This document shows positions 13,674 to 46,428 of a stretch of DNA of 64,000 nt, piece after piece. The notes under the pieces are model-generated. The model was not told the DNA's origin and did not search any database. It saw only the letters and a program-made list of their open reading frames with translations. The number at the start of each line of letters is the position of its first letter. Positions within the stretch are counted from its first letter, which is position 1. Source of the DNA: an uncultured Actinomycetes bacterium (GTDB lineage Bacteria; Actinomycetota; UBA4738; HRBIN12); the NCBI GenBank assembly GCA_963708985.1, contig CAVPUQ010000001.1, positions 406,663 through 470,662 on the forward strand, given 5' to 3'. The position numbers and the translations under genes are program-made.

Positions 13674-14957
13674 ACGAGGTCATCGCGATCGTCGTCTTCG
13701 TCGGCGCGTACACGCTGATCGCGACCGAATGGGTCCACCGCGTCGTCGTAGCGCTGGCGGGCGCCGGACTGATGCTCCTGTTCCAGATCGTGGACGCTCG
13801 GGAAGCATTCAGCTCCGACCGGTTCGGCATCGACTGGAACGTCATCTTCCTGCTGCTCGGGATGATGGTCATCGTCGGGGTCCTGCGGCACACGGGTCTC
13901 TTCGAGTACCTGGCGATATGGGCGGCGAAGAAGGCGCGGGGCCGGCCGTACCGCGGTGCTCGCGCTCCTCGTCCTGATCACGGGGGTCGCGTCGGCGCTC
14001 CTGGACAACGTGACCACCGTGCTGCTCGTCGCACCGGTGACGGTGCTCATCTGCGAGCGCCTGGGCGTCCCGCCGGTTCCGTTCCTGATCGCCGAGGCGC
14101 TCGCCTCGAACATCGGCGGCACGGCCACGCTCGTCGGCGATCCGCCGAACATCATCATCGCGAGCGAGGCGGGCCTGTCCTACATCGACTTCCTGGTCAA
14201 CATCGGGCCGCTCGTCCTGATCCTGCTCGCGGTCTACCTCGGGATCGCCCGGTGGCAGTTCCGCGGCGCGCTCGAGTACCACGCGGAACGCGTCCGCGAG
14301 GTCATGAGCCTGGACGAGCGCGAGGCGCTCGTGCGAGGGCCGCTCCTCCCTCGCGCGCTCGCGGTGCTCGGTGTCGTGACGGCCGGGTTCCTGCTCCAGG
14401 AAGTACTCGGGTACGAGCCGGCGGTCGTCGCGCTCCTCGGCGGGGGGGTGCTGCTCCTGATCGCGCGCGAGGAGCCGACCGTGTACCTGCGCGAGGTGGA
14501 GTGGCACACGCTCGTGTTCTTCATGGGCCTGTTCATCATGGTCGGCGCCCTAGTGAAGGTCGGCGTCATCGACCGCCTGGCCGAGCGCGCGATCGGGCTG
14601 GTCGACGGCCATCTGTGGCTCGCGGTCGTGCTGCTGGTGTTGATCTCGGGGATCCTGTCGGGGATCGTCGACAACATCCCCTACGTGGCGACGATGGCGC
14701 CGCTCGTCGCGCAGCTCGCTCACTCGATCCCGGGCGACGCCGTCGTGCTGTGGTGGGCGCTCGCGATCGGGGCAGATCTAGGCGGCAACGCGACCTCGAT
14801 CGGCGCGAGCGCCAACGTCGTCGTGCTCGGTCTGTCCGAGCGCTCGGGTCACCGCATCCGCTTCGTCGAGTGGCTGCGGTACGGCGTGCCCGTCACGGCG
14901 ATCACGCTGGTGGTTTCGCTCGCGTACCTGTGGGTGCGGTACTTCCTGCTCGCCTGA
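13670..14957 (+). CDS. ArsB/NhaD/SLC13-family ion transporter (frameshift near 13950)
   Basis: [83 protein letters not shown]. Confidence 0.92.
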
Positions 14958-15006
14958 AGGATCGGCTCCGGCGTCTTCCCGCAGGTCACGCCCCATGCGT
15001 TCTTCC

Positions 15007-15081
15007 TATACTGCCCCGGGTCCCGGCTCCGGCGGGGCGCCCTGACGACGAGATCGCTTCCCCGAACGCCGACCGAGGAGG
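15007..15081 (+). promoter_or_regulatory. Candidate hppA promoter -10 and RBS
   Basis: TATACT 15007-15012; GAGGAGG about 15075-15081; TTG start 15088. Confidence 0.5.
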
Positions 15082-15087
15082 TTCCAG

Positions 15088-17349
15088 TTGTTCGGTGTCC
15101 TGGCCCAGGAGGGCGGCCCGATCGAGGCCGTCTTCGGCAACTTCGAGACCAACGCGCTGTGGGTGATCCTCGTGATCTCGCTGTGCGCGCTGGCCTTCGC
15201 CTACTACCTCGTACGTGAAGTGCTCGGCGCCCCTGAGGGCACCGACAAGATGAAGGAGATCGCCCGAGCGATCCAGGAGGGCGCGAGCGCATACCTGAAG
15301 CGTCAGTTCAGCACCCTCGGGATCTTCCTCGCGCTCCTGACGGTGCTGCTGTTCATCGTGCTCCCGACGCCGGCGAACGCCGCGCACTCGGCCTTCTCGA
15401 TCCGGTTCGGGCGCTCGCTGGCATTCATCTTGGGCGCGGTGTTCTCGGCGACGACCGGGTTCGTGGGGATGTGGCTCGCCGTCCGCGCGAACGTCCGCAC
15501 CGCGAATGCCGCTCGCGAGTCCGGCCTGCGCAAGGCGATGCGGATCGCGTTCCGCGCCGGCGGCGTGGCCGGCATGTTCACGGTCGGCCTCGGGCTCTTC
15601 GGCGCGACGGTCATCCTGCTCGTCTACAAGCAGCGATGCGACGTCGGTGCTGGTCGGCTTCGGGTTCGGTGGCGCGCTCCTCGCGATGTTCATGCGGGTC
15701 GGCGGCGGCATCTTCACGAAGGCCGCGGACGTCGGCGCGGACCTCGTCGGCAAGGTCGAGCAGGGCATCCCGGAGGACGACCCGCGCAACGCGGCCACGA
15801 TCGCGGACAACGTCGGGGACAACGTCGGTGACTGCGCCGGGATGGCGGCCGACCTGTTCGAGTCCTACGAGGTCACCCTCGTCGCCTCGTTGATCCTCGG
15901 CGCTGCGGCGTACAGCGGCTCCGAGGTCGGTGCGATCGCCGGCGTGATGTTCCCGCTGTTCGTCCGCGCGGTCGGCGTCATCACCTCGATCATCGGGATC
16001 CTCGCGGTCTCGCCACGCTCCGAGGAGGAGCACGGCATGAAGGCCATCAACCGCGGGTTCTTCCTGTCGGCGGCGGTCTCGGCGGCGGCCGTCTTCGTGA
16101 TCTCGAGCATCTACATGAAGGACGTCCGGCCGGCTGTTGCCGTCCTGTTCGGGCTGATCCTCGCGAGCGTGATCCAGGTGCTCACGCAGTACTTCACCGA
16201 CACGAAGCACAAGCCGGTGCAGGAGATCGCCGAGGCCGACGCAGACGGGCCCGGCGACGACGATCCTGTCAGGTTTCTCGGTCGGCCTGGAGTCCACCGT
16301 CTGGTCGCTCATCGTGATCGTCGGCGCGGTGGTCGGCGCGTTCCTGCTCGGCGATTCGACGGCCGAGCGCCTGTACTTCATCTCGCTCGACCGGCATGGG
16401 CATGCTCACGACCGTCGGCGTCATCGTCTCGATGGACACCTACGGACCGATCTCGGACAACGCGCAAGGCATCGCCGAGATGTCGGGCGAGTTCGAGGGC
16501 AAGCCCGCGAAGATCCTCGGGGGCCTGGACGCCATCGGGAACTCGACCAAGGCGATCACGAAGGGCATGGCGATCGCGACCGCGGTGATCGCGGCGACCT
16601 CGCTGTTCGGCTCGTTCGAGGAGGCCCTGAAGGAGGCCGGGTTCGACTTCGACGGCATCCGCGTCGACCGACCCGACGTGCTCGTCGGGCTGCTCGTCGG
16701 CGGCTCGATCGCGTTCTTGTTCTCCTCGCTCGCGATCCGCGCCGTCGGCCGTGCTGCCTCACAGGTCGTGGTGGAGGTCCGCAACCAGTTCCGCGACCAC
16801 CCCGGCATCATGACCTTCGAGGAGAAGCCGGACTACGCGAGCGTGGTCGACATCTGCACGAAGACCTCGCTGCGCGAGCTGATGACCCCCGGTCTGCTGG
16901 CGGTGCTCTCACCGATCATCGTCGGGTTCTTCCTCGAGGGCCGAGGCGCTCGGCGCGTTCCTCGCCGGCGCGATCCTCACCGGCCAGCTCCTCGCGGTCA
17001 TGCTCTCCAACTCGGGCGGCGCGTGGGACAACGCGAAGAAGTACATCGAGGAGGGCCACTACGGCGGCAAGGGCTCGGAGCGGCACAAGGCCGCCGTCAT
17101 CGGCGACACGGTCGGCGATCCGTTCAAGGACACGGCCGGTCCGGCGCTGAACCCGATGATCAAGGTGATGAACCTCGTCGCGCTGCTCCTCGCGCCGCTC
17201 GTGGTCGAGCACGCGGACGACACGGTGCTGCGGATCGTGGTCGGCCTCGTCGCGGTGGCCGTGGTCGGCGCGGCGGTCTACGTCTCGAAGACGCGGAAGT
17301 CCGAGCTGATGACGTCGCCCGACCGAAGGAGGAGGCCCTCGTCTCGTAG
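15088..17349 (+). CDS. hppA: Membrane-bound H+-translocating pyrophosphatase, K+-independent type (frameshifted)
   Basis: [72 protein letters not shown] (Lys variant), [23 protein letters not shown]. Confidence 0.95.
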
Positions 17350-39174: not shown

Positions 39175-39343
39175 GGTGACACCATCGGGACCGTCGTCCA
39201 AGGGAGTCGACCTGCGGGTCTGCGGGCGGGAACCCCACCGTGACGGGTGTGCAGGCACCCCTCGACGCTTGTGGTGGCGGCCGGGTCGCTCCCCGGGCCC
39301 TCGCCTCCTACGGTGGGTCCGAGAAGAACGAGGGAGGCTCGAG

Positions 39344-39751
39344 ATGAACAAGATCCTCGTCGGAACCGACACCTCGGGATCGGCGGACCTGGCCGTGCGC
39401 GCTGCAGTCGGGCTGGCCGAGGCGACCGACGCCGAGCTCCTGGTCCTGCACGTCCGATCGCCGAACGGCGGACACGACGCGGTCGACCCGCGCAAGGCCC
39501 CCGACCCCGGCGCGTACCTGTCGGCGATGTCCGCGCGGTTCCCGGCGGTGCGACTGCGGGCTTGGAGCGAGCCGGGCGACGCCGCCGAGCGTCTGGTCGA
39601 GGTCGCGGAGACCGAGCGCGTGGACACGATCGTGGTCGGGAACAGGGGCGTGCACGGCCCGAGGTGGCGCGTCCGCGACAGCGTGCCGACGATGGTCGTG
39701 CGCCACGCCCCGTGCTCGGTGCTGATCGTGGATACGCGGGCGGCGCAGTGA
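39344..39751 (+). CDS. Universal stress protein (stand-alone USP)
   Basis: RBS GGGAGG; KILVGTDTSGSA, IVVGNRGVHG...SVPTMVVRHAPCSVLIV. Confidence 0.9.
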   Translation: MNKILVGTDTSGSADLAVRAAVGLAEATDAELLVLHVRSPNGGHDAVDPRKAPDPGAYLSAMSARFPAVRLRAWSEPGDAAERLVEVAETERVDTIVVGNRGVHGPRWRVRDSVPTMVVRHAPCSVLIVDTRAAQ

Positions 39752-39762
39752 CGCTCGGAAGG

Positions 39763-40429
39763 TCAGGCGCCGCGCTCGCGGAGGAACGCGAGCACCGCCA
39801 TCACCCGACGGTGGACCTCGGGCTCCTCGGAGAGCGCGAGCTTGTGGAACAGCGAGTTGATGTGCTTCTCGACCGCTCGCTCCGTGAGGAACAGCGACCT
39901 CGCGATGGCGGCGTTGTTCTTGCCCTGCGCCATCTGCTCGAGCACCTCGCGCTCGCGATCGGTGAGCTGCGCGAGCGGCGAGTGCGCCATCCGGTCCTTC
40001 GCCGAGACGAGCGCCTCGACGACCTTGGGATCGAGGACCGAGCCGCCGCCCGCGACCTCGCGGAGCGCCCGCACGAGTTCGCCCGACGTCGGCGACCCGC
40101 TCCTTCAGCAGGTACCCGAGCCCCGCCGCCCCGTCCTTGAGCAGCTCGTACGCGTACTCCTCCTCGGCGAACTGCGACAGGACGACGACGCCGATCTCCG
40201 GGTGCTCGCCCCGGACCTTCCTCGCCGCGTCGATGCCCTCGGTCGTGTTGGTCGGCGGCATGCGGATGTCGGTGAGCACGGCCTCGGGGCGGAGCTCGTC
40301 CACGGCCAAGAGCAGCTCCTCGAGGTTCGTCGCGGTGCCGACCAGATCGACCTCGTCCGAGTTGGTCAACAGGGCGGCCGTCCCCTCGCGAACGAGGTAG
40401 TTGTCCTCGGCGAACACGACACGGATCAC
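39763..40429 (-). CDS. NarL/LuxR-family response regulator (frameshift near 40085)
   Basis: MIRVVFAEDNYLVREG, VLTDIRMPP, GYLLKERV, LTDREREVLEQMAQGKNNAAIA...VEKHINSLFHKL. Confidence 0.93.
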
Positions 40430-40446
40430 GGCGGCATGCTACACAC

Positions 40447-40459
40447 ACCACCGGTGGGG
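40447..40459. promoter_or_regulatory. Palindromic motif ACCACCGGTGGGG, copy 1
   Basis: Perfect 10-bp palindrome CCACCGGTGG in the 38-bp divergent intergenic region; identical 13-mer at 46307-46319. Confidence 0.5.
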
Positions 40460-40467
40460 GACGCGGG

Positions 40468-41765
40468 TTGACGATCAGGGTCGTGCTGGGAGAGGACAAC
40501 GTCCTCGTGCGCGAGGGCGTCCGTGCCCTCCTGGACTCCTACGACGACATGCAGGTCGTCGGCGTGGCCGCCGACGCGCCGTCCCTGCTCTCGACCGCCG
40601 CCGAGCACGCCCCCGACGTCGTCGTGACCGACATCAAGATGCCCCCGAACTTCCAGCTCGAGGGCATCGACTGCGCCCACGCCATCCGCGCCTCGCAGCC
40701 CGGCACCGGAGTCGTGGTCCTGTCGGCCCACGACGACGAGGCGTACGCGATCGCGCTCCTCGGCCAGGGGCAGAGCGGGCTCGCGTACCTGCTGAAGGAC
40801 CGCATCGCGCAGGGCGACGAGCTCGTGCGCGCGATCCGCGAGGTCGCCGCCGGGGGCAGCGCGGTGGACCCGATGATCGCCGAGCGCCTCTCCGGCCGCC
40901 GCGAGACCGCCGAGGCGGACCGGGAGATCCTGGACATGATGGCGCAGGGCCTCGGCTACGAGCAGATGGCCGAGCGACTCGGCACGACGCAGGAGTCCGT
41001 CGACCGCCGGGTCACCGAGCTGTTCCGCCGGATGGCGATCCAGGCCGAGGGCGGCTCGGCCGCCGCGGTGGACGAGCTGAAGCGTCTGCACGCCGCGGTC
41101 GTGCAGAAGGAAACGACCGCGTCCTCGCTCCGTTCGTACGTTCCGTCGCAGGTCGCCGACCGGCTCGCGACGGGCGAGGTGGGACAGCAGGAGCTGGAGG
41201 TCACCGTGTCTGTTCAGCGACATCCGCGGCTTCTCGACGATCGCCGAGCGGCTGTCCGCCCGCCAGATCTCCGAGATCGTCGGTCGGCACCTGCTCGGCG
41301 ATGGCCGAGGTCGTGGCGGAGCACGGCGGAACGATCGACAAGTTCCAGGGCGACGCGGTGATGGCGGTCTTCGGCGCGCCGGACCCGCTGCCCGACCACG
41401 CCGAGCGCGCCCTGCGGTGCGCGATCGCGATGCAGGCTCGCCAGGCCGCGCTGAACGCCGAGGGCTGGGGGACCGACGCCATCGACGGCCTGCAGGTCGG
41501 GATCGGGGTCAACACCGGCCAGGTGATCGCGGGCGCCGTCGGTGGGGGCGGCAGGCTCGAGTACACGGTCGTCGGCGATGCCGTGAACGTCGCCTCGAGG
41601 CTGCAGTCGGAGGCCGACGGCGGCGAGATCGTGACGACCGCCTCGACGATGGCCGCCGCTCCGAGCGTCAGAGCCGAATCAGTCGGTCCGCGCGTCGTGA
41701 AGGGTCGCGAGGAGCCGGTCGAGGTGTTCCGCGTGCGCGTCGAGACCGGGGAGCGCTCGACGTGA
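40468..41765 (+). CDS. REC-LuxR-like HTH-class III adenylate cyclase fusion (frameshifts near 41210 and 41295)
   Basis: REC (VVLGEDNVLVREG, VVTDIKMPP), HTH-like DREILDMMAQGLGYEQMAERLGTT, cyclase LFSDIRGFS, IDKFQGDAVM, GIGVNTG, YTVVGDAVNVASRL. Confidence 0.9.
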
Positions 41766-43906
41766 GTGCCGCGTCGGCAGCCCGCATGCGTGCGCGGCCC
41801 GTCCGCTGGCCCTGGCTCGCGGTCATCTGGTTCATCGTCGTCGCCACCGCGGGCTTCGCGCTCGTCGTCGAGAACGGCGAGTCCGTCCTCGAGCAGGTCC
41901 CGTTCACGGTCGCGTTCGCCCTGTTCGGCGTCGTCGGAGCGCTCATCGTCAGCCGGGCGAGGAACCGGATCGGCGCCCTCCTGCTCTGGGGTTCGGCGTC
42001 GACCGCGCTCTCCTTCGTAGCGGGCGAGGCCACGACCGCGCTCGTGCGGCGTGGCACGACGACGGGACCGGTGGCCGTCGGCGCGGCAGCGTTCGCGAGC
42101 CTGGGATGGGTGATCGGGATCCTGCCCGTGTTCCTCCTGCTGCCCTTGCTCTTCCCGGACGGCCGACTCCCCTCGAGGCGTTGGCGGCCGCTCGCCTGGC
42201 TCTGCGTCGCTTTCCTCGTCCTCCTGGGGGTCGGTAGCCTGCTCACCCAACCGATCCTGACCGGATCCGTCGAGAGCGCCGGGGTCCCGAACCCGCTCTT
42301 CATCCCCTCGCTCGGCGAGATCGGGATCTCCGAAGCCTTCTTGAACGTCGGGCTCCTCGTGTTTCTCGTCGGCTCCGTGGGCTCCCTGATCGTTCGGTTC
42401 CGACGGGCTCGGGGGGTGGAGCGCCAGCAGATCAAGTGGGTCGCGGCCACCTCCGTCCTCTTGCTCGTGTCCTTCGTCCTCTCCGCTCTCGCGAGCGCCG
42501 TTGGGTTGGGTGGCTTCGTCGACGCCTTCGTCGTGGGGCCGGCGTTCGTGCTCCTCCCCGTTTCGATCGGGATCGGGGTGTTGCAGTATCGCCTCTACGA
42601 CCTCGACGTCGTCGTGAAGAAGGCGCTCATCGCAGGCACGCTCGTCGTGTCCGGGATCGCGGTGTACGGCGGCGTCGTGTGGGTCGCGGGATCGATCGCC
42701 TCGGATCGTGCCAGCTCGGTATCCCTCTTCGTGATCGCGCTCATCCTCGGGATGGCGTTCCGCCCGGTGGTCCGGTTCGCTCGGCGGGTCGCCGACCGGC
42801 TCGTGTACGGGCGCCGAGCTACCCCGTATGAGGTCTTGACCGAGTTCTCCGGCCGCGTCGGCGAGGCGTACGCGACGGAGGACGTCCTCGGGCGGATGGC
42901 GCGGATCCTGGGCGAGGGCGTCGGCGCGGAGGAGGCCCGCGTCTGGCTGCTGGTCGCCGGCGAGCTGCGGCCGGAGGGCGCCTGGCCCGCCGGCGCCGAG
43001 GCGGGTCACCCGCGCCCGGTGCGCGGCGATGCGCTCCCCGGGCTGGCCGGTGAGATGGCCGTCGAGGTGCGCGATCGCGGCGAGCTCCTCGGGGCGCTCT
43101 CGGTTCGGATGTCCGCCAACGACCCGATGACCCCGCCCAAGGAGCGGCTCGTCCGGGACCTCGCGTCGCAGGCGGGGCTGGTTCTGCGCAACGTCCGGCT
43201 CGTCGAGGAGCTCCGCGCCTCGCAGCGTCGCCTCGTGGCCGCGCAGGACGAGGAGCGTCGGCGGATCGAACGCAACATCCACGACGGCGCACAGCAGCAG
43301 CTCGTCGCGCTCGCCGTCAAGCTCCGACTCGCGCAGGGGCTCGCGTCGAAGGACCCGAGCAGGACCGAGGCCATGCTGCTGCGACCTGCAGGAGGAGACG
43401 CAGTCGGCCCTGGAGGACCTGCGCGACCTCGCTCGAGGGATCTACCCACCGCTGCTCGCCGACAAGGGCCTCGCGGCCGCGCTCGAGGCGCAGGCCCGCA
43501 AGACCCCGATCCCGGTGCGAGGTCGACGCCCGACGGCATCGGCCGCTACCCGCAGGAGGCGGAGGCGGCGGCCTACTTCTGTGTGCTCGAGGCGCTCCAG
43601 AACGTCTCGAAGTACGCGGACGCCACCAGGGCCATGGTCCGCCTCGGCCACGACGAGGGGCACCTGACCTTCGAGGTCCAGGATGACGGTGCCGGGTTCG
43701 ACGCCGCGTCGACCGGCTACGGCACGGGACTGCGAGGGATGGCGGACCGGCTCGGAGCGCTCGATGGCGAGATCGCCGTGGAGAGCGCGCCCGGACGCGG
43801 CACCACCGTGCAAGGGCGGATCCCGGTTGAGGTCGAAGAGCGGCAGGCGTCTGGGTCGGGCTCGGTGCGGGTCACGGAGGAGCGAGGGTCGGAGGCGGAG
43901 GGCTGA
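41762..43906 (+). CDS. Multi-TM sensor histidine kinase B, paralog of kinase A (compensating indels 43380-43525)
   Basis: LLFPDGRLPSRRWR, YRLYDLDVVVKK, ERNIHDGAQQQLVAL, EALQNVSKYA, DDGAGF..GTGLRGMADRL. GTGA overlap with the cyclase gene. Confidence 0.92.
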   Translation: MSAASAARMRARPVRWPWLAVIWFIVVATAGFALVVENGESVLEQVPFTVAFALFGVVGALIVSRARNRIGALLLWGSASTALSFVAGEATTALVRRGTTTGPVAVGAAAFASLGWVIGILPVFLLLPLLFPDGRLPSRRWRPLAWLCVAFLVLLGVGSLLTQPILTGSVESAGVPNPLFIPSLGEIGISEAFLNVGLLVFLVGSVGSLIVRFRRARGVERQQIKWVAATSVLLLVSFVLSALASAVGLGGFVDAFVVGPAFVLLPVSIGIGVLQYRLYDLDVVVKKALIAGTLVVSGIAVYGGVVWVAGSIASDRASSVSLFVIALILGMAFRPVVRFARRVADRLVYGRRATPYEVLTEFSGRVGEAYATEDVLGRMARILGEGVGAEEARVWLLVAGELRPEGAWPAGAEAGHPRPVRGDALPGLAGEMAVEVRDRGELLGALSVRMSANDPMTPPKERLVRDLASQAGLVLRNVRLVEELRASQRRLVAAQDEERRRIERNIHDGAQQQLVALAVKLRLAQGLASKDPSRTEAMLLRPAGGDAVGPGGPARPRSRDLPTAARRQGPRGRARGAGPQDPDPGARSTPDGIGRYPQEAEAAAYFCVLEALQNVSKYADATRAMVRLGHDEGHLTFEVQDDGAGFDAASTGYGTGLRGMADRLGALDGEIAVESAPGRGTTVQGRIPVEVEERQASGSGSVRVTEERGSEAEG

Positions 43907-44115
43907 TGGCCGGGCGCGCGCCGGCGAGGAAGAAGCGCTCCGTGTTCCGGCGCGTCGAGCGCTGGATGGTCGGCCTCGCCATGGGTGTGATGGCGTTCGT
44001 GCTCGAGCGCGTCGTGATGCGCTCGGTCCGCAAGAGGGGGAAGCGAGACCCCGCCCCCAAGCCCACGACGCTCTCGTCGAAAGGCGGGGACGTCGACCTT
44101 CCCGAGCAGCGCTAG
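43906..44115 (+). CDS. Small basic hypothetical protein (69 aa) with one hydrophobic segment
   Basis: ATG overlaps kinase B stop; RRVERWMVGLAMGVMAFVLERVV; fills the gap exactly to the convergent gene. Confidence 0.6.
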   Translation: MAGRAPARKKRSVFRRVERWMVGLAMGVMAFVLERVVMRSVRKRGKRDPAPKPTTLSSKGGDVDLPEQR

Positions 44116-46236
44116 GGCGACGGCTTCCGGTCGCGGAACAGGTCCGCGAGCAGCCCCATCGTGAACACCAGCCCGACGGCTCCGAGCGTGATCGGGATCC
44201 AGTCCGCCACCCTGGCCGAGGTCGCCGTGATCGCCGTGCCGAGCAGCGAGGCGGCCGCCACGACACCGAGGGCGAGCCGTCGGCCCGCCCGGCGCACCGT
44301 CTGTTCCAGGGAGGCCGCGCGGAAGTTGACCTCGAGCTTCTGGCCGGGGCGAGCACCGATCAGCCGCTCGACGGCCTCGACGACGCGCAGGAAGCGGACC
44401 TTCAGTCGTCTGCGACTGGTAGAAGAGCGTCTTCGGGTCGAACTTCGCGCCCATCTCCGTGATCAAGGCACGCATGAGGAACCTGCCGGCCACGTCGAAC
44501 GGGTCGAGCGTGGGGTCCAGCTGCGCGGCGGCGAGCTGCATCTGTGCCAGCGCCTTCGCCGTCAGCGTGAGCGAGGCCGGCAGCGGGACGTTGTGGCGCA
44601 GCGAGATCTCCGTCATCTCCTGCAGGACCGGTCCGAGCTGGATGTCCTTGCAGCGAAGCGCCGTGGTACTTGGCCATCAGCTCGCCGATCTCGCCCGAGA
44701 ACGCCTGCGTGTCCAGGTCGCTGCGGTCGATCGCGCCGGCCAGCATGAGCGTGACGTCGGTGAGGAACCCGACGTCCTGCTGCCAGAACGCCATGAGCAG
44801 GAGCAGCATCATGTGCTCGCGCATCTCGGGGCCGACCTCCCCGATCATGCCGAGGTCTAGGAGGAAGATCCGCTCGGTCGACGGCTGCCACATCAGGTTC
44901 CCGGGGTGCGGGTCGGCGTGGAAGAAGCCGTCGACGATGATCTGCTTGTAGAACGACTCGAGGAGCTGCCGCGCCGACTCCTTGCGCGCCGTCCCCTCGG
45001 GGGCATCGCTGATCGGGCCACCCTGCACGTCCTCCATCACGAGCAGCCGTGACGTCGAGAAGTCACCGAACACCGCCGGCACCTCGAGCCGCGAGAACTG
45101 CTCGATGACCTCGGCCATCCGTCGCATGTTGCTCGGCCTCCTGGCGGAAGTCGAGCTCGCGGTGGAGCGAGTCCGAAAGGTGCTCGAACACGGCCCCCAT
45201 GTCGATGACCTGCTTCAGGGCTGGGCGGTCGCTGACCTTCTCGGCGAAGACCTCGAGCAGCGCCAGGTCCTGCTCGATCTGCTCGCGGGCGTCGGGGCGC
45301 TGCACCTTCACGACGACCGGCTCGCCGTTCGCGAGGATCGCACGATGGACCTCGGCGATCGTGCCGGCCGCGAGCGGGCTGTGGCTCGATGTGGTCGAAC
45401 ACGTCCTCCCACGGCACGCCGAGCTCCTGCTCCATGACCTTCACCACCTGCTCCTCGGTGAGGGGAGGGACGTGATCCTGGAGCGTGGCGAGCTCCTCGA
45501 TGAACTCCGGCGGAAGCAGGTCGGGTCGCGTCGAGAGGATCTGCCCGAGCTTCGCGAACGTCGGCCCGAGCTCCTCGAGCGCCGAGCGAAGGCGCTTGGC
45601 CTGGCGCCGGCGCCCGATCGCGCCCTCCTCGTCCGGACGGCCGAACAGCTCCTTCAGCCCGTGCTTCGCGAAGACAGCCGCGATCTTCGAGCCGCGCGCC
45701 ATCAGGTGCGGCTCGGCCTCCTTCTCCAGCACCGAGCTTCGGATCACCGTCGCCGAGCGTGGATCGCGTGTCACGACGTGGCCCTCGCTCCCCGCGGTGT
45801 TCACGATGATCACCGTGCATCGCGCGTTGTGGCTGATCCGGTTCGGCACGTTGCCGAGCAGGAACTCCTTGCGCCCGGCCATCCCGGCGTTGCCGACCAC
45901 GAGCACGTCGATGTCGTGGTCCTCGGTCGCGTGCACGATCGCCATGGCCGGGTCGTCGTCGATCACGACGTGGGCCCGTCCCCGTTCGCCCGCCAGACGG
46001 ACCGACTCGGCCTGGAGCTCGTCGGCGGCGGTTCGAGCCCGGGTGGCCTCGGCCGCGCCGTACTCGGTCGTCGCCGGGTTCGTGGGCATGACGACCTGGA
46101 CCAGGTGCAGCTCGGCGCCGTAGCGCTCGGCGAACGCGCTCGCCCATCCGACCGCGCGCGTGGCGGTCTCGGAGCGGTCGGTCGCGACCATGACCCGCCC
46201 CACCCCGTTCCTGCCGACGTCCCTCACGTCCGCCAT
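44112..46236 (-). CDS. USP-ABC1/UbiB(AarF) atypical kinase fusion with two C-terminal TMs (frameshifted)
   Basis: USP (VMVATDRSETA...VVGNAGMAGRKEFLLGNVPNRISHNARCTVIIV) is in the same frame as GPTFAKLGQILSTRPDLLP; then AAGTIAEVHRA, VVVKVQRP, ELDFRQEA, GFFHADPHPGN, LLDLGM. Confidence 0.9.
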
Positions 46237-46306
46237 GGCCTCGCAGTCTGCTGGAGTTGTGGCTTCTCGGCAACGGGGCGCCCACCATGGCCGGTCGGGT
46301 GGTTGG

Positions 46307-46319
46307 ACCACCGGTGGGG
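46307..46319. promoter_or_regulatory. Palindromic motif ACCACCGGTGGGG, copy 2
   Basis: About 70 bp upstream of the USP-ABC1 ATG and about 20 bp upstream of the tRNA -10 (TACACT 46337-46342). Confidence 0.5.
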
Positions 46320-46352
46320 CGGGACACGCGGTTCGCTACACTCGCTGACGCC

Positions 46353-46428
46353 GCCGGGGTAGCTCAGTTGGCAGAGCAGCGGTTTCGTAAACCGCAGGTC
46401 AGGGGTTCGAGTCCCCTCCCCGGCTCCA
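46353..46428 (+). tRNA. tRNA-Thr(CGT)
   Basis: Acceptor GCCGGGG/CCCCGGC, D-arm AGCTCAGTTGGCAGAGC, anticodon arm GCGGT-TTCGTAA-ACCGC, T-loop GGTTCGAGT, encoded CCA; 76 nt. Confidence 0.97.

What the first reader, a model, noticed from the sequence alone, without database searches (positions are those of the whole stretch)
44112..46236. USP fused N-terminally to an ABC1/UbiB atypical kinase
Seen: USP and the KxGQ-bearing ABC1 N-terminus share one uninterrupted frame (46236 to about 45380), so the fusion is not an indel artefact. Kinase motifs are intact and there are two C-terminal TMs. The USP signature GNAGM..RKEFLLGNVP resembles, from recall, the Rv1636-type USP (GNVGL...LLGSVP). Established: UbiB-family proteins are autoinhibited by the KxGQ domain. 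Inference: nucleotide (ATP/cAMP) sensing by the USP releases that inhibition, linking stress to menaquinone or lipid distribution.
Basis: partly seen in the sequence, partly recalled or inferred. Interest (0 to 1): 0.76.

Follow-up and report, generated by a model that had tools for sequence, protein, structure and literature searches.

The report
USP-UbiB kinase gene, broken by assembly errors
This is a real and widespread soil-actinobacterial gene that joins a nucleotide-binding stress domain to a UbiB-type membrane ATPase, but here it is cut into five reading frames by four single-base insertions that look like long-read assembly errors, and the domain combination was already catalogued, though never studied.

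Summary
The USP domain and the KxGQ-bearing start of the ABC1/UbiB domain do share one open frame (46236 to 45379, minus strand). The gene as assembled is not one ORF: four single extra bases (45378, 45131, 44650, 44409) split it into five frames. Removing them gives a 706-aa protein 90% identical to intact ~700-aa proteins in other MAGs.

The breaks look like assembly errors. The genome has about 825 candidate breaks (0.28/kb), 81% of them insertions. Purifying selection persists in every segment, and the same bias appears in other long-read MAG loci but not in the remaining, mostly many-contig MAG loci. Reads could not be checked.

The fusion is genuine: it is intact in relatives across the order and in 80 species-level MAGs. 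It is not new, because a USP-ABC1 protein was noted in Nitrosomonas in 2005. One related family carries the two halves as adjacent separate genes.

A class III cyclase gene lies nearby in three different arrangements, though not in all lineages. That gives modest support to nucleotide or cAMP control of the UbiB ATPase. No specific Rv1636 likeness was found. The organism has MenA and no UbiA equivalog, so the target is not ubiquinone. Function remains inferred.

The parts
44112..46236 (-). USP-UbiB/ABC1 gene as assembled: 2125 nt in five frame segments; 2121 nt and 706 aa once the four extra bases are ignored
   Evidence: It is 90% identical to the intact 702-aa protein P0001.
45802..46200 (-). 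USP domain (aa 13-145) with VATDRSE and GNAGMAGRKEFLLGNV (G-x2-G-x9-G-N)
   Evidence: Pfam PF00582, 92 bits. The motif is more than 98% conserved in 125 family members. The translation was checked.
45718..45795 (-). Linker between the USP domain and the UbiB N-terminal helices (aa 148-173)
   Evidence: AlphaFold2 pLDDT is below 50 for residues 148-173 of the 90%-identical P0001. Conservation is low here.
45541..45552 (-). KxGQ motif (KLGQ, aa 229-232), in the same frame as the USP domain
   Evidence: K229, G231 and Q232 are invariant in alignment A1.
44780..45483 (-). ABC1 kinase-like domain (aa 252-485), spread over three frames. It holds the A-rich loop (45345-45374), the catalytic Lys motif VVVKVQRP (45294-45317) and HADPHPGN (44897-44920).
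   Evidence: Pfam PF03109, 219.5 bits on the frame-corrected protein.
45378..45378 (-). Extra base 1: CAG[C]CCG on the minus strand, between aa 286 and 287
   Evidence: Gap against L011 and against L012 and L013. The HMM frame switch falls at 45384/5.
45131..45131 (-). Extra base 2: GAG[C]AAC, inside the ELDFRQEAEN motif
   Evidence: The HMM frame switch falls at 45129/30.
44650..44650 (-). Extra base 3: CTG[C]AAG
   Evidence: The HMM frame switch falls at 44648/9.
44409..44409 (-). Extra base 4: CAG[A]CGA
   Evidence: The HMM frame switch falls at 44405/6.
44136..44279 (-). Two C-terminal hydrophobic helices (aa 652-672 and 677-699), a likely membrane hairpin
   Evidence: Kyte-Doolittle peaks above 1.5. 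AlphaFold2 helices at 639-670 and 677-701.
43906..44115 (+). 69-aa basic protein gene with one hydrophobic helix, convergent with the USP-UbiB gene and overlapping its 3' end by 4 nt
   Evidence: No Pfam family. A homologue is present downstream in 48 of 50 loci with at least 7.5 kb of downstream flank, usually immediately adjacent.
40468..41765 (+). Response-regulator (REC) class III cyclase gene, convergent with USP-UbiB and also carrying frame breaks (insertions near 41208 and 41293)
   Evidence: The intact orthologue L012:3661-5055 has Response_reg plus Guanylate_cyc. A cyclase lies downstream in 47 of 50 loci.
41755..43906 (+). HisKA_3-type sensor histidine kinase between the cyclase gene and the small gene; it also has frame breaks
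   Evidence: The orthologue L012:5037-7175 has HisKA_3 plus HATPase_c.
46353..46428 (+). tRNA-Thr(CGT), divergent from the USP-UbiB start; it bounds the promoter region
   Evidence: ARAGORN. The same tRNA flank is seen upstream in relatives.

Best explanation
The locus encodes a conserved ~705-aa membrane-anchored protein. An N-terminal universal-stress-protein (USP) nucleotide-binding domain is tethered by a flexible linker of about 26 residues to a complete UbiB/ABC1 atypical kinase-like ATPase: the KxGQ helical domain, the kinase-like core, the UbiB helical region and a two-helix membrane hairpin.

Shown. The architecture is real. Intact orthologues exist across the order and in at least 80 species-level MAGs. 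All catalytic and nucleotide-binding motifs are conserved. In this assembly the gene is interrupted by four one-base insertions.

Inferred with good support. Those insertions are long-read assembly errors, so the organism makes the intact protein.

Inferred function. The USP domain binds an adenine nucleotide, either ATP or cAMP. Through dimerisation or reversible docking next to the KxGQ domain, it tunes the lipid-activated ATPase of the UbiB module. In a menaquinone-only actinobacterium that module would act on menaquinone, on another isoprenoid lipid, or on the complexes that handle them, and not on ubiquinone.

A histidine kinase and a REC-cyclase operon next door is the likely source of a cAMP signal in this lineage. 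The cAMP step is the least certain; I put it at about 0.3.
For: Architecture: Pfam Usp plus ABC1. All 120 best database hits are ~700 aa with PF00582, PF03109 and PF27536. Single-frame orthologues occur in G004, G008, G017, G013, G018 and others, in 80 of 80 genome loci, and in family f1, sister families, f18 and f49 in a 301-genome phylum sample.

USP and UbiB work together: in family f18 the 51-53% orthologues are two adjacent same-strand genes, a 130-aa USP with the same GN.GM..RK.FL..N.PNR motif directly followed by a USP-less UbiB. This was seen in six of six loci.

Ligand site: VATDRSE and GNxGMxGRxEFLLGNVxNR are more than 98% conserved.

Assembly error: the four insertions are seen against three relatives. 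Synonymous differences exceed nonsynonymous ones in segments 1-4, at 51:18, 10:7, 23:8 and 17:5. GC3 stays above 0.9 in every segment. There are 825 candidate breaks genome-wide, 670 of insertion type and 155 of deletion type. Neighbouring genes are hit too. Completeness is only 73.7% in 10 contigs. The same detector gives 0.152/kb (73:16) in 'MFD' MAG loci, most of them cut from contigs of 0.1-3 Mb (that MFD MAGs are long-read assemblies is my own knowledge, not a tool result), and 0.044/kb (12:8) in the other MAG loci.

Cyclase link: a REC-cyclase lies convergently within 7.4 kb in 47 of 50 loci. L094 has a co-directional USP-UbiB, REC-cyclase, HisKA_3 kinase cluster. L099, whose fusion is only 49% identical, has a divergent FHA-cyclase 57 nt upstream. 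The genome holds only about 11 cyclase genes in 2.96 Mb.

Precedents: cAMP binds the USP Rv1636 (PMC11107214). UbiB-family ATPase activity is activated by lipids and phenols through the KxGQ domain (bioRxiv 10.1101/149823).

Quinone background: MenA is present and no UbiA equivalog was found. This is the only strong ABC1 gene in the genome.
Against: The insertions are not in homopolymers, which is not the classic nanopore error pattern.

The cyclase neighbour is absent from several fusion-bearing lineages: L107, L109, L110, L108, L112, L098, L038 and L084. It is also absent from the split USP|UbiB loci. Within the window's family the adjacency may partly be inherited synteny, and the genes are convergent, not co-transcribed.

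The residue equivalent to Rv1636 G10 is Ala, and the closest solved USP is an ATP binder. AlphaFold2 gives no confident interdomain arrangement (pTM 0.56, linker pLDDT below 50). The gene is missing from near relatives G003, G005 and G006, so it is dispensable. No biochemical function is known for any actinobacterial UbiB homologue of this clade.
Confidence: 0.6

Rival explanations
1. The USP domain is an ATP or energy-charge sensor, or simply a dimerisation module. It has nothing to do with cAMP, and the neighbouring cyclase operon is inherited synteny without functional meaning.
For: The closest solved USP is ATP-binding TTHA0895, and the motif is the generic ATP type G-x2-G-x9-G. The G10 equivalent is Ala. 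Fused lineages f18, f49 and f6 and the split USP|UbiB loci lack a nearby cyclase. In the window's family the genes are convergent.
Against: A cyclase recurs in three different topologies and with two different regulatory domains, REC and FHA, at fusion identities of 49-90%. The background density is only about 11 cyclase genes in 2.96 Mb.
Confidence: 0.35
2. The gene is a genuine pseudogene in this organism, inactivated by four real insertions.
For: The sequence as given has four frame breaks. The gene is dispensable, since it is absent in G003, G005 and G006. Another scan note reports a real nonsense mutation in a Usp-UbiB gene of a different phylum (unchecked).
Against: There are about 825 similar breaks genome-wide with a 4.3:1 insertion bias, the opposite of the usual bacterial deletion bias. 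Each segment has no in-frame stops, no decay of GC3 and excess synonymous change. Essential-looking neighbours are also broken. Other 'MFD' MAG loci, mostly from very long contigs, show the same bias and the remaining MAG loci do not.
Confidence: 0.1
3. The frame changes are decoded in vivo, by programmed +1 frameshifting or quadruplet decoding.
For: All four shifts go in the same direction, and 81% of the genome's candidate breaks do too.
Against: The four sites share no codon or motif: CAG[C]CCG, GAG[C]AAC, CTG[C]AAG and CAG[A]CGA. Orthologues have plain triplet sequence at the same places. The rate tracks assembly series and not lineage.
Confidence: 0.02
4. The USP-ABC1 junction itself is an assembly or indel artefact that joins two separate genes.
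For: Split USP|UbiB gene pairs do exist in family f18, and this assembly is error-prone.
Against: The junction is in one frame here with no indel relative to relatives. It is also fused in dozens of independent assemblies.
Confidence: 0.01

Closest known systems
UbiB/ABC1/ADCK family (E. coli UbiB, yeast Coq8, human COQ8A/B; PF03109)
   Same: It has a full ABC1 domain, the KxGQ motif, the A-rich loop, catalytic Lys, Glu and Asp, and C-terminal membrane helices as in bacterial UbiB. COQ8A/B structures match at E 1e-19 to 1e-21.
   Different: It scores below the UbiB equivalog cut-off: TIGR01982 gives 335 bits against 487.6. The host has MenA but no UbiA equivalog, so it is not a ubiquinone-pathway UbiB. 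It also carries an N-terminal USP domain.
Mycobacterial ABC1 proteins with solved structures (5yjz/MABP-1 type, 7cy2)
   Same: These are the best solved-structure matches to the kinase part (E 4e-30 and 4e-28, residues 195-573). They are actinobacterial and belong to the UbiB family.
   Different: NCBIfam ATPase_MABP1 scores 109 bits against a cut-off of 800. Those proteins have no USP domain, and the solved chains have no TM hairpin.
USP-ABC1 protein of Nitrosomonas europaea noted by Krupa and Srinivasan 2005 (PMC1262709)
   Same: It has the same domain order, an N-terminal Usp followed by an ABC1 kinase. It was catalogued in a survey of prokaryotic kinase architectures.
   Different: It comes from a different phylum, and its relationship to the actinobacterial clade was not tested here. 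That paper gives no function or context.
Rv1636 / MSMEG_3811, cAMP-binding single-domain USP
   Same: It has the USP fold and the G-x2-G-x9-G motif, and the G113 equivalent is present. It is actinobacterial, and a cyclase gene lies nearby here.
   Different: It is only the 7th-best solved USP match (E 6e-7). The G10 equivalent is Ala in the window's protein, and the final motif residue is Asn, not Ser. Here the USP is fused, not free-standing.
USP domains fused to other signalling enzymes (KdpD sensor kinase USP that binds c-di-AMP; USP-Ser/Thr kinases)
   Same: A USP domain acts as an N-terminal or internal nucleotide-sensing module on a kinase-type protein (PMC4686210 listed; PMC1262709).
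   Different: The partner enzyme here is a UbiB-type ATPase, and the ligand is unknown.

Membership tests
UbiB/ABC1 family (PF03109) | ABC1 domain above Pfam gathering score | tested here: met
   219.5 bits against 22.9 on the frame-corrected protein. As assembled, the longest ORF holds only positions 2-37 of the domain (25.1 bits).
UbiB/ABC1 family (PF03109) | Invariant KxGQ motif and Ala-rich nucleotide loop | tested here: met
   KLGQ at aa 229-232 and LAAGTIAEVH at aa 288-297. Both are invariant or nearly so in the family.
UbiB/ABC1 family (PF03109) | Catalytic Lys, Glu, and Asp/Asn loop plus DxG | tested here: met
   VVVKVQRP, ELDFRQEAEN, HADPHPGN and DLG are all present and conserved.
UbiB/ABC1 family (PF03109) | ATPase (or kinase) activity | not testable with these tools
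   Needs purified protein.
UbiB equivalog (TIGR01982, ubiquinone biosynthesis) | Score above the equivalog cut-off, and a ubiquinone pathway in the host | tested here: not met
   335.2 bits against a cut-off of 487.55. The UbiA equivalog is absent (83.7 bits against 275.45) and MenA is present. Caveat: the genome is 74% complete.
MABP-1 macrolide-binding ATPase (NF050082) | Score above the model cut-off | tested here: not met
   109 bits against 800.
Universal stress protein family (PF00582), ATP-binding class | Usp domain above the gathering score | tested here: met
   92 bits against 24.
Universal stress protein family (PF00582), ATP-binding class | G-x2-G-x9-G-(S/T) motif | tested here: inconclusive
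   The motif here is G115-N-A-G118-x9-G128-N129. All three glycines are present and invariant, but the last residue is Asn and not Ser or Thr. Binding was not measured.
Rv1636-type cAMP-binding USP | Both cAMP-contact glycines (G10 and G113 of Rv1636) | tested here: not met
   The G113 equivalent is present (VVGNAG). The G10 equivalent is Ala17 (VMVATD); it is Gly only in some relatives such as P0121.
Rv1636-type cAMP-binding USP | Closest sequence relationship among characterised USPs | tested here: not met
   1wjg (TTHA0895) is the best match at E 1.7e-9. Rv1636 (1tq8) scores 5.8e-7 and 5ahw 3.9e-6.
Rv1636-type cAMP-binding USP | cAMP binding | not testable with these tools
   Needs a binding assay. 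Cyclase neighbourhood is only indirect support.

The most novel reading that the evidence does not exclude
The histidine kinase, the REC-cyclase and the USP-UbiB protein form one signalling chain. A membrane stimulus activates the HisKA_3 kinase. The kinase phosphorylates the REC-cyclase, which makes cAMP. cAMP binds the USP domain and switches the UbiB-type ATPase. This would be the first natural second-messenger input described for the poorly understood UbiB family, and it would control menaquinone or isoprenoid-lipid handling in soil Actinomycetota.
Probability: 0.2. Interest if true: 0.7.

Novelty: new member of a known kind. Interest (0 to 1): 0.35.

Why it matters
UbiB/ABC1/COQ8 proteins are ancient and disease-relevant, yet what regulates them is still unclear. 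A natural version with a built-in nucleotide-sensing domain offers an experimental handle on how the UbiB ATPase is switched. So do its split two-gene form and, in several lineages, an adjacent cyclase. It also raises the question of what UbiB-type proteins do in bacteria that make only menaquinone. For this particular window the practical message is more modest: the gene is an ordinary member of an abundant, already catalogued architecture, and its apparent disruption reflects assembly quality. About a quarter of the genes in this genome are probably mis-framed, which matters for any annotation drawn from it.

Tried and rejected

2. Homopolymer errors: the candidate break sites show no enrichment of homopolymer runs compared with random positions, so classic homopolymer miscalls do not explain them.

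3. Shared frameshift motif or quadruplet codon: the four sites share none, so this was rejected.

4. Shared operator: the 13-mer ACCACCGGTGGGG occurs at 40447 and 46307, but with up to 2 mismatches 15 of 100 shuffles give as many hits as the real sequence. CACCGGTG is found upstream of the orthologue in 0 of 74 loci. I did not take it as evidence of co-regulation.

5. ORF calling in relatives by a GC3 cut-off did not separate sense from antisense frames. I used tblastn and Pfam instead.

6. Cyclase adjacency as a universal rule: rejected. It is absent around the fused genes in L107-L110 and L112, in L098, L038 and L084, and in the split loci.

7. Literature: searches for UbiB with USP and fusion found no functional study. 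Only the 2005 catalogue mention turned up.

8. AlphaFold2 of the intact homologue gave no confident interdomain geometry. I did not run a fold search on it, because the sequence matches to solved structures were already clear.

9. One reference (L017:9285-11291:+) was on the wrong strand and was dropped.
Full report
**What is in the sequence.** On the minus strand a gene runs from ATG 46236 to TAG 44112-44114. It is not a single ORF. The ORF table shows five overlapping pieces in three frames, and six-frame translation shows the protein hopping frames four times, always in the same direction. A GC3-based frame HMM places the switches at 45384/5, 45129/30, 44648/9 and 44405/6, and third-position GC stays above 0.9 in every piece. 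DNA alignment to an 89%-identical homologue (L011) and to two same-genus relatives (L012, L013) pins down four isolated one-base insertions in the window. They are at 45378 (CAG[C]CCG), 45131 (GAG[C]AAC), 44650 (CTG[C]AAG) and 44409 (CAG[A]CGA). Ignoring them gives a 706-aa protein with Pfam Usp (aa 13-145, 92 bits) and ABC1 (aa 252-485, 219.5 bits). It is 90% identical to an intact 702-aa database protein, P0001.

**Check of the observation.** The USP domain and the KxGQ motif (KLGQ, aa 229-232) lie in one uninterrupted frame from 46236 to 45379, and relatives show no indel there. The kinase motifs are all present: LAAGTIAEVH, VVVKVQRP, ELDFRQEAEN, HADPHPGN and DLG. There are two C-terminal hydrophobic helices. 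One break sits inside the ELDFRQEAEN motif.

**Artefact or pseudogene?** Several lines point to assembly error.
- The same detector finds about 825 candidate frame breaks in the 2.96-Mb genome (0.28/kb). Of these, 670 are insertion-type and 155 deletion-type. The window holds 28.
- Neighbouring genes are hit by the same isolated one-base insertions: the LuxR-type regulator at 40085, and the REC-cyclase at 41208 and 41293. An earlier scan note on the cyclase gene reached the same view.
- The genome is only 73.7% complete by marker genes although it is in 10 contigs.
- Against L011, synonymous differences outnumber nonsynonymous ones in segments 1-4 (51:18, 10:7, 23:8, 17:5). Selection on the corrected frame therefore continues past every break.
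- As a control, the detector gives 0.044/kb with no directional bias (12:8) in the non-MFD MAG loci. It gives 0.152/kb with the same insertion bias (73:16) in loci from the 'MFD' MAG series. Many MFD loci come from contigs of 0.1-3 Mb. To my own knowledge that series consists of nanopore assemblies.
- One other very contiguous relative, G206 (2 contigs), also shows a frame break in its orthologue.

The sites are not homopolymeric and share no motif, so programmed frameshifting is very unlikely. I put assembly error at about 0.85, a real pseudogene at about 0.1, and everything else at a few per cent.

**Is the fusion real, and how widespread is it?** Intact single-frame orthologues covering residues ~5-702 occur in same-genus, same-family and same-order genomes. 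All 120 best database hits are ~700 aa and carry Usp, ABC1 and UbiB_helical. Eighty species-representative MAG loci carry it; nearly all are labelled uncultured Actinomycetota or Actinomycetes. In an even sample of 301 genomes of the phylum, the full-length fusion appears in every sampled member of the window's family. It also appears in sister families of the order and in two further families, f18 and f49. Other lineages have only USP-less UbiB homologues at 30-37% identity. At 50% clustering there are only a handful of full-length fusion clusters (P0121 at 68%, P0123 at 49%, P0127 at 43%) before USP-less ~550-aa proteins take over. In most relatives it is the only strong ABC1 gene, and it is missing from G003, G005, G006 and G024-G026, so it is dispensable. 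The architecture is not new to the literature: a 2005 survey already noted an ABC1-family kinase with an N-terminal Usp domain in Nitrosomonas europaea (PMC1262709). IMG annotation names both COGs for these proteins. Other notes of this scan report the same fusion in at least seven further genomes (unchecked). I found no functional study.

**Evidence that the two halves work together.** In family f18 the 51-53% orthologues are split. All six loci examined have a ~130-aa USP gene with the same distinctive motif: GNYGMSERKQFLMSNIPNRVSHNAPCTVIIV, against GNAGMAGRKEFLLGNVPNRISHNARCTVIIV here. It is followed immediately on the same strand by a USP-less UbiB gene, sometimes in the same frame after a stop and sometimes in another frame. 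This fused-versus-adjacent pattern is classic evidence for a functional partnership. The USP nucleotide-binding elements (V-A/G-T-D-R-S-E and G-N-x-G-M-x-G-R-x-E-F-L-L-G-N-V-x-N-R) are more than 98% conserved across 125 family members. That argues for a working ligand site.

**Which ligand?** The motif is the general ATP-type USP signature. By sequence the closest solved USP is the ATP-binding TTHA0895 (1wjg). Rv1636 and its M. smegmatis orthologue rank 7th and 8th. Of the two glycines that contact cAMP in Rv1636 (G10 and G113; PMC11107214), the G113 equivalent is present, but the G10 equivalent is Ala in the window's protein and in most relatives. It is Gly in P0121. So there is no specific Rv1636-type signature.

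Gene context does point towards a cyclic nucleotide. In 47 of 50 species-level loci with enough flank, a REC-cyclase gene lies within 0.2-7.4 kb downstream on the opposite strand, usually with a HisKA_3 histidine kinase and a conserved 69-aa membrane protein. In L094 (62% identity) the three genes run co-directionally: USP-UbiB, then REC-cyclase, then HisKA_3 kinase. In L099 (49% identity) an FHA-cyclase sits divergently 57 nt upstream in an otherwise unrelated neighbourhood. The genome has only about 11 cyclase genes. The cyclase carries a Lys in the DKFQGD segment and a Thr in EYTVVGD (sequence). From my own knowledge that Lys/Thr pair is the class IIIb adenylate-cyclase pattern.

Against a universal link, fused genes in f18, f49 and f6, in P0127's contig, in L038 and L084, and in the split loci have no cyclase nearby.

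**Structure.** AlphaFold2 on P0001 with a 41-sequence alignment gave mean pLDDT 72 and pTM 0.56. It predicts a folded USP domain and a very confident kinase core (pLDDT above 90 for about residues 260-460). Residues 148-173 form a low-confidence linker, and two long C-terminal helices follow. The USP therefore looks tethered and not rigidly packed against the KxGQ domain. Any control is more likely to come from dimerisation or reversible docking than from a fixed interface. The KxGQ domain is known to mediate membrane and cardiolipin binding and to be needed for ATPase activity in COQ8 and E. coli UbiB (bioRxiv 10.1101/149823). The USP attaches just upstream of its first helix.

**What the UbiB part is.** It is a family member but not a UbiB equivalog (TIGR01982, 335 bits against 487.6) and not MABP-1 (109 against 800). 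Its best solved relatives are mycobacterial ABC1 proteins (5yjz, 7cy2), followed by COQ8A/B. The genome has MenA above cut-off and no UbiA equivalog. The substrate world is therefore menaquinone or other isoprenoid lipids, not ubiquinone; the caveat is that the genome is incomplete.

**Verdict.** A ligand-regulated UbiB is plausible and the cAMP link has modest contextual support. The Rv1636 likeness is not specific, and the KxGQ-release mechanism is untested. The locus is an ordinary member of an abundant, catalogued but unstudied architecture. Its interest lies in offering a testable regulatory input to the UbiB family.

Noticed in passing
whole genome G000; window 1-64000: There are about 825 candidate frame breaks genome-wide (0.28/kb), of which 81% are one-base-insertion type and none are tied to homopolymers. 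The window holds 28, for example at 1921, 4481, 4832, 5116, 12095, 12276, 13954, 15082-16941, 28131, 40084 and 43381. Any ORF-based reading of this genome needs frame correction.
   Followed up: partly
window 43906-44115 (+): A 69-aa basic protein with one hydrophobic helix and no Pfam family overlaps the 3' end of USP-UbiB tail-to-tail by 4 nt. A homologue lies downstream in 48 of 50 loci, usually immediately adjacent to USP-UbiB. It stays adjacent even where the kinase and cyclase are absent (L038, L108).
   Followed up: partly
L101-L106 (genomes G040, G176, G136, G215, G110, G189): These loci hold the split form of the same system: a 130-aa USP gene directly followed by a USP-less UbiB gene at 51-53% identity. 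In three loci the two genes are in the same frame, separated by a stop codon.
   Followed up: partly
window 46237-46352 and upstream regions of L018-L042: Relatives share a conserved element of the type GGTGC-TG-GCACC(AC) between the divergent tRNA-Thr gene and the USP-UbiB start. The window instead has the palindrome CCACCGGTGG, which also occurs at 40447-40459. It could be an operator or part of the tRNA promoter; I did not resolve this.
   Followed up: partly
L094:7746-13603: An Acidimicrobiaceae-labelled MAG has a co-directional cluster of USP-UbiB, REC-cyclase and GAF/HisKA_3 kinase. A second HisKA_3-like kinase lies further downstream, at about 14269-15697.
   Followed up: partly
L099:1309-2223 (-): An FHA-domain class III cyclase (304 aa) sits divergently 57 nt upstream of a 49%-identical USP-UbiB gene. 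An Amidohydro_2 gene overlaps the 3' end, as it also does in L098.
   Followed up: no
G206:C1:1976294-1978356: The orthologue in another very contiguous assembly (2 contigs) is split at residue 406 into two frames. This suggests the same kind of assembly error elsewhere.
   Followed up: no
window 39308-40429 (-), 40468-41765 (+) and 41417-43906 (+): The LuxR-type response regulator, the REC-cyclase and the HisKA_3 kinase next to the finding each carry isolated one-base insertions or frame switches, at 40085, 41208, 41293 and about 43381/43518.
   Followed up: partly
G000, 12 places: The 2.96-Mb genome encodes about 11 class III cyclase genes, most within open frames of 800-1400 aa. This is a large cAMP signalling repertoire for its size.
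   Followed up: no
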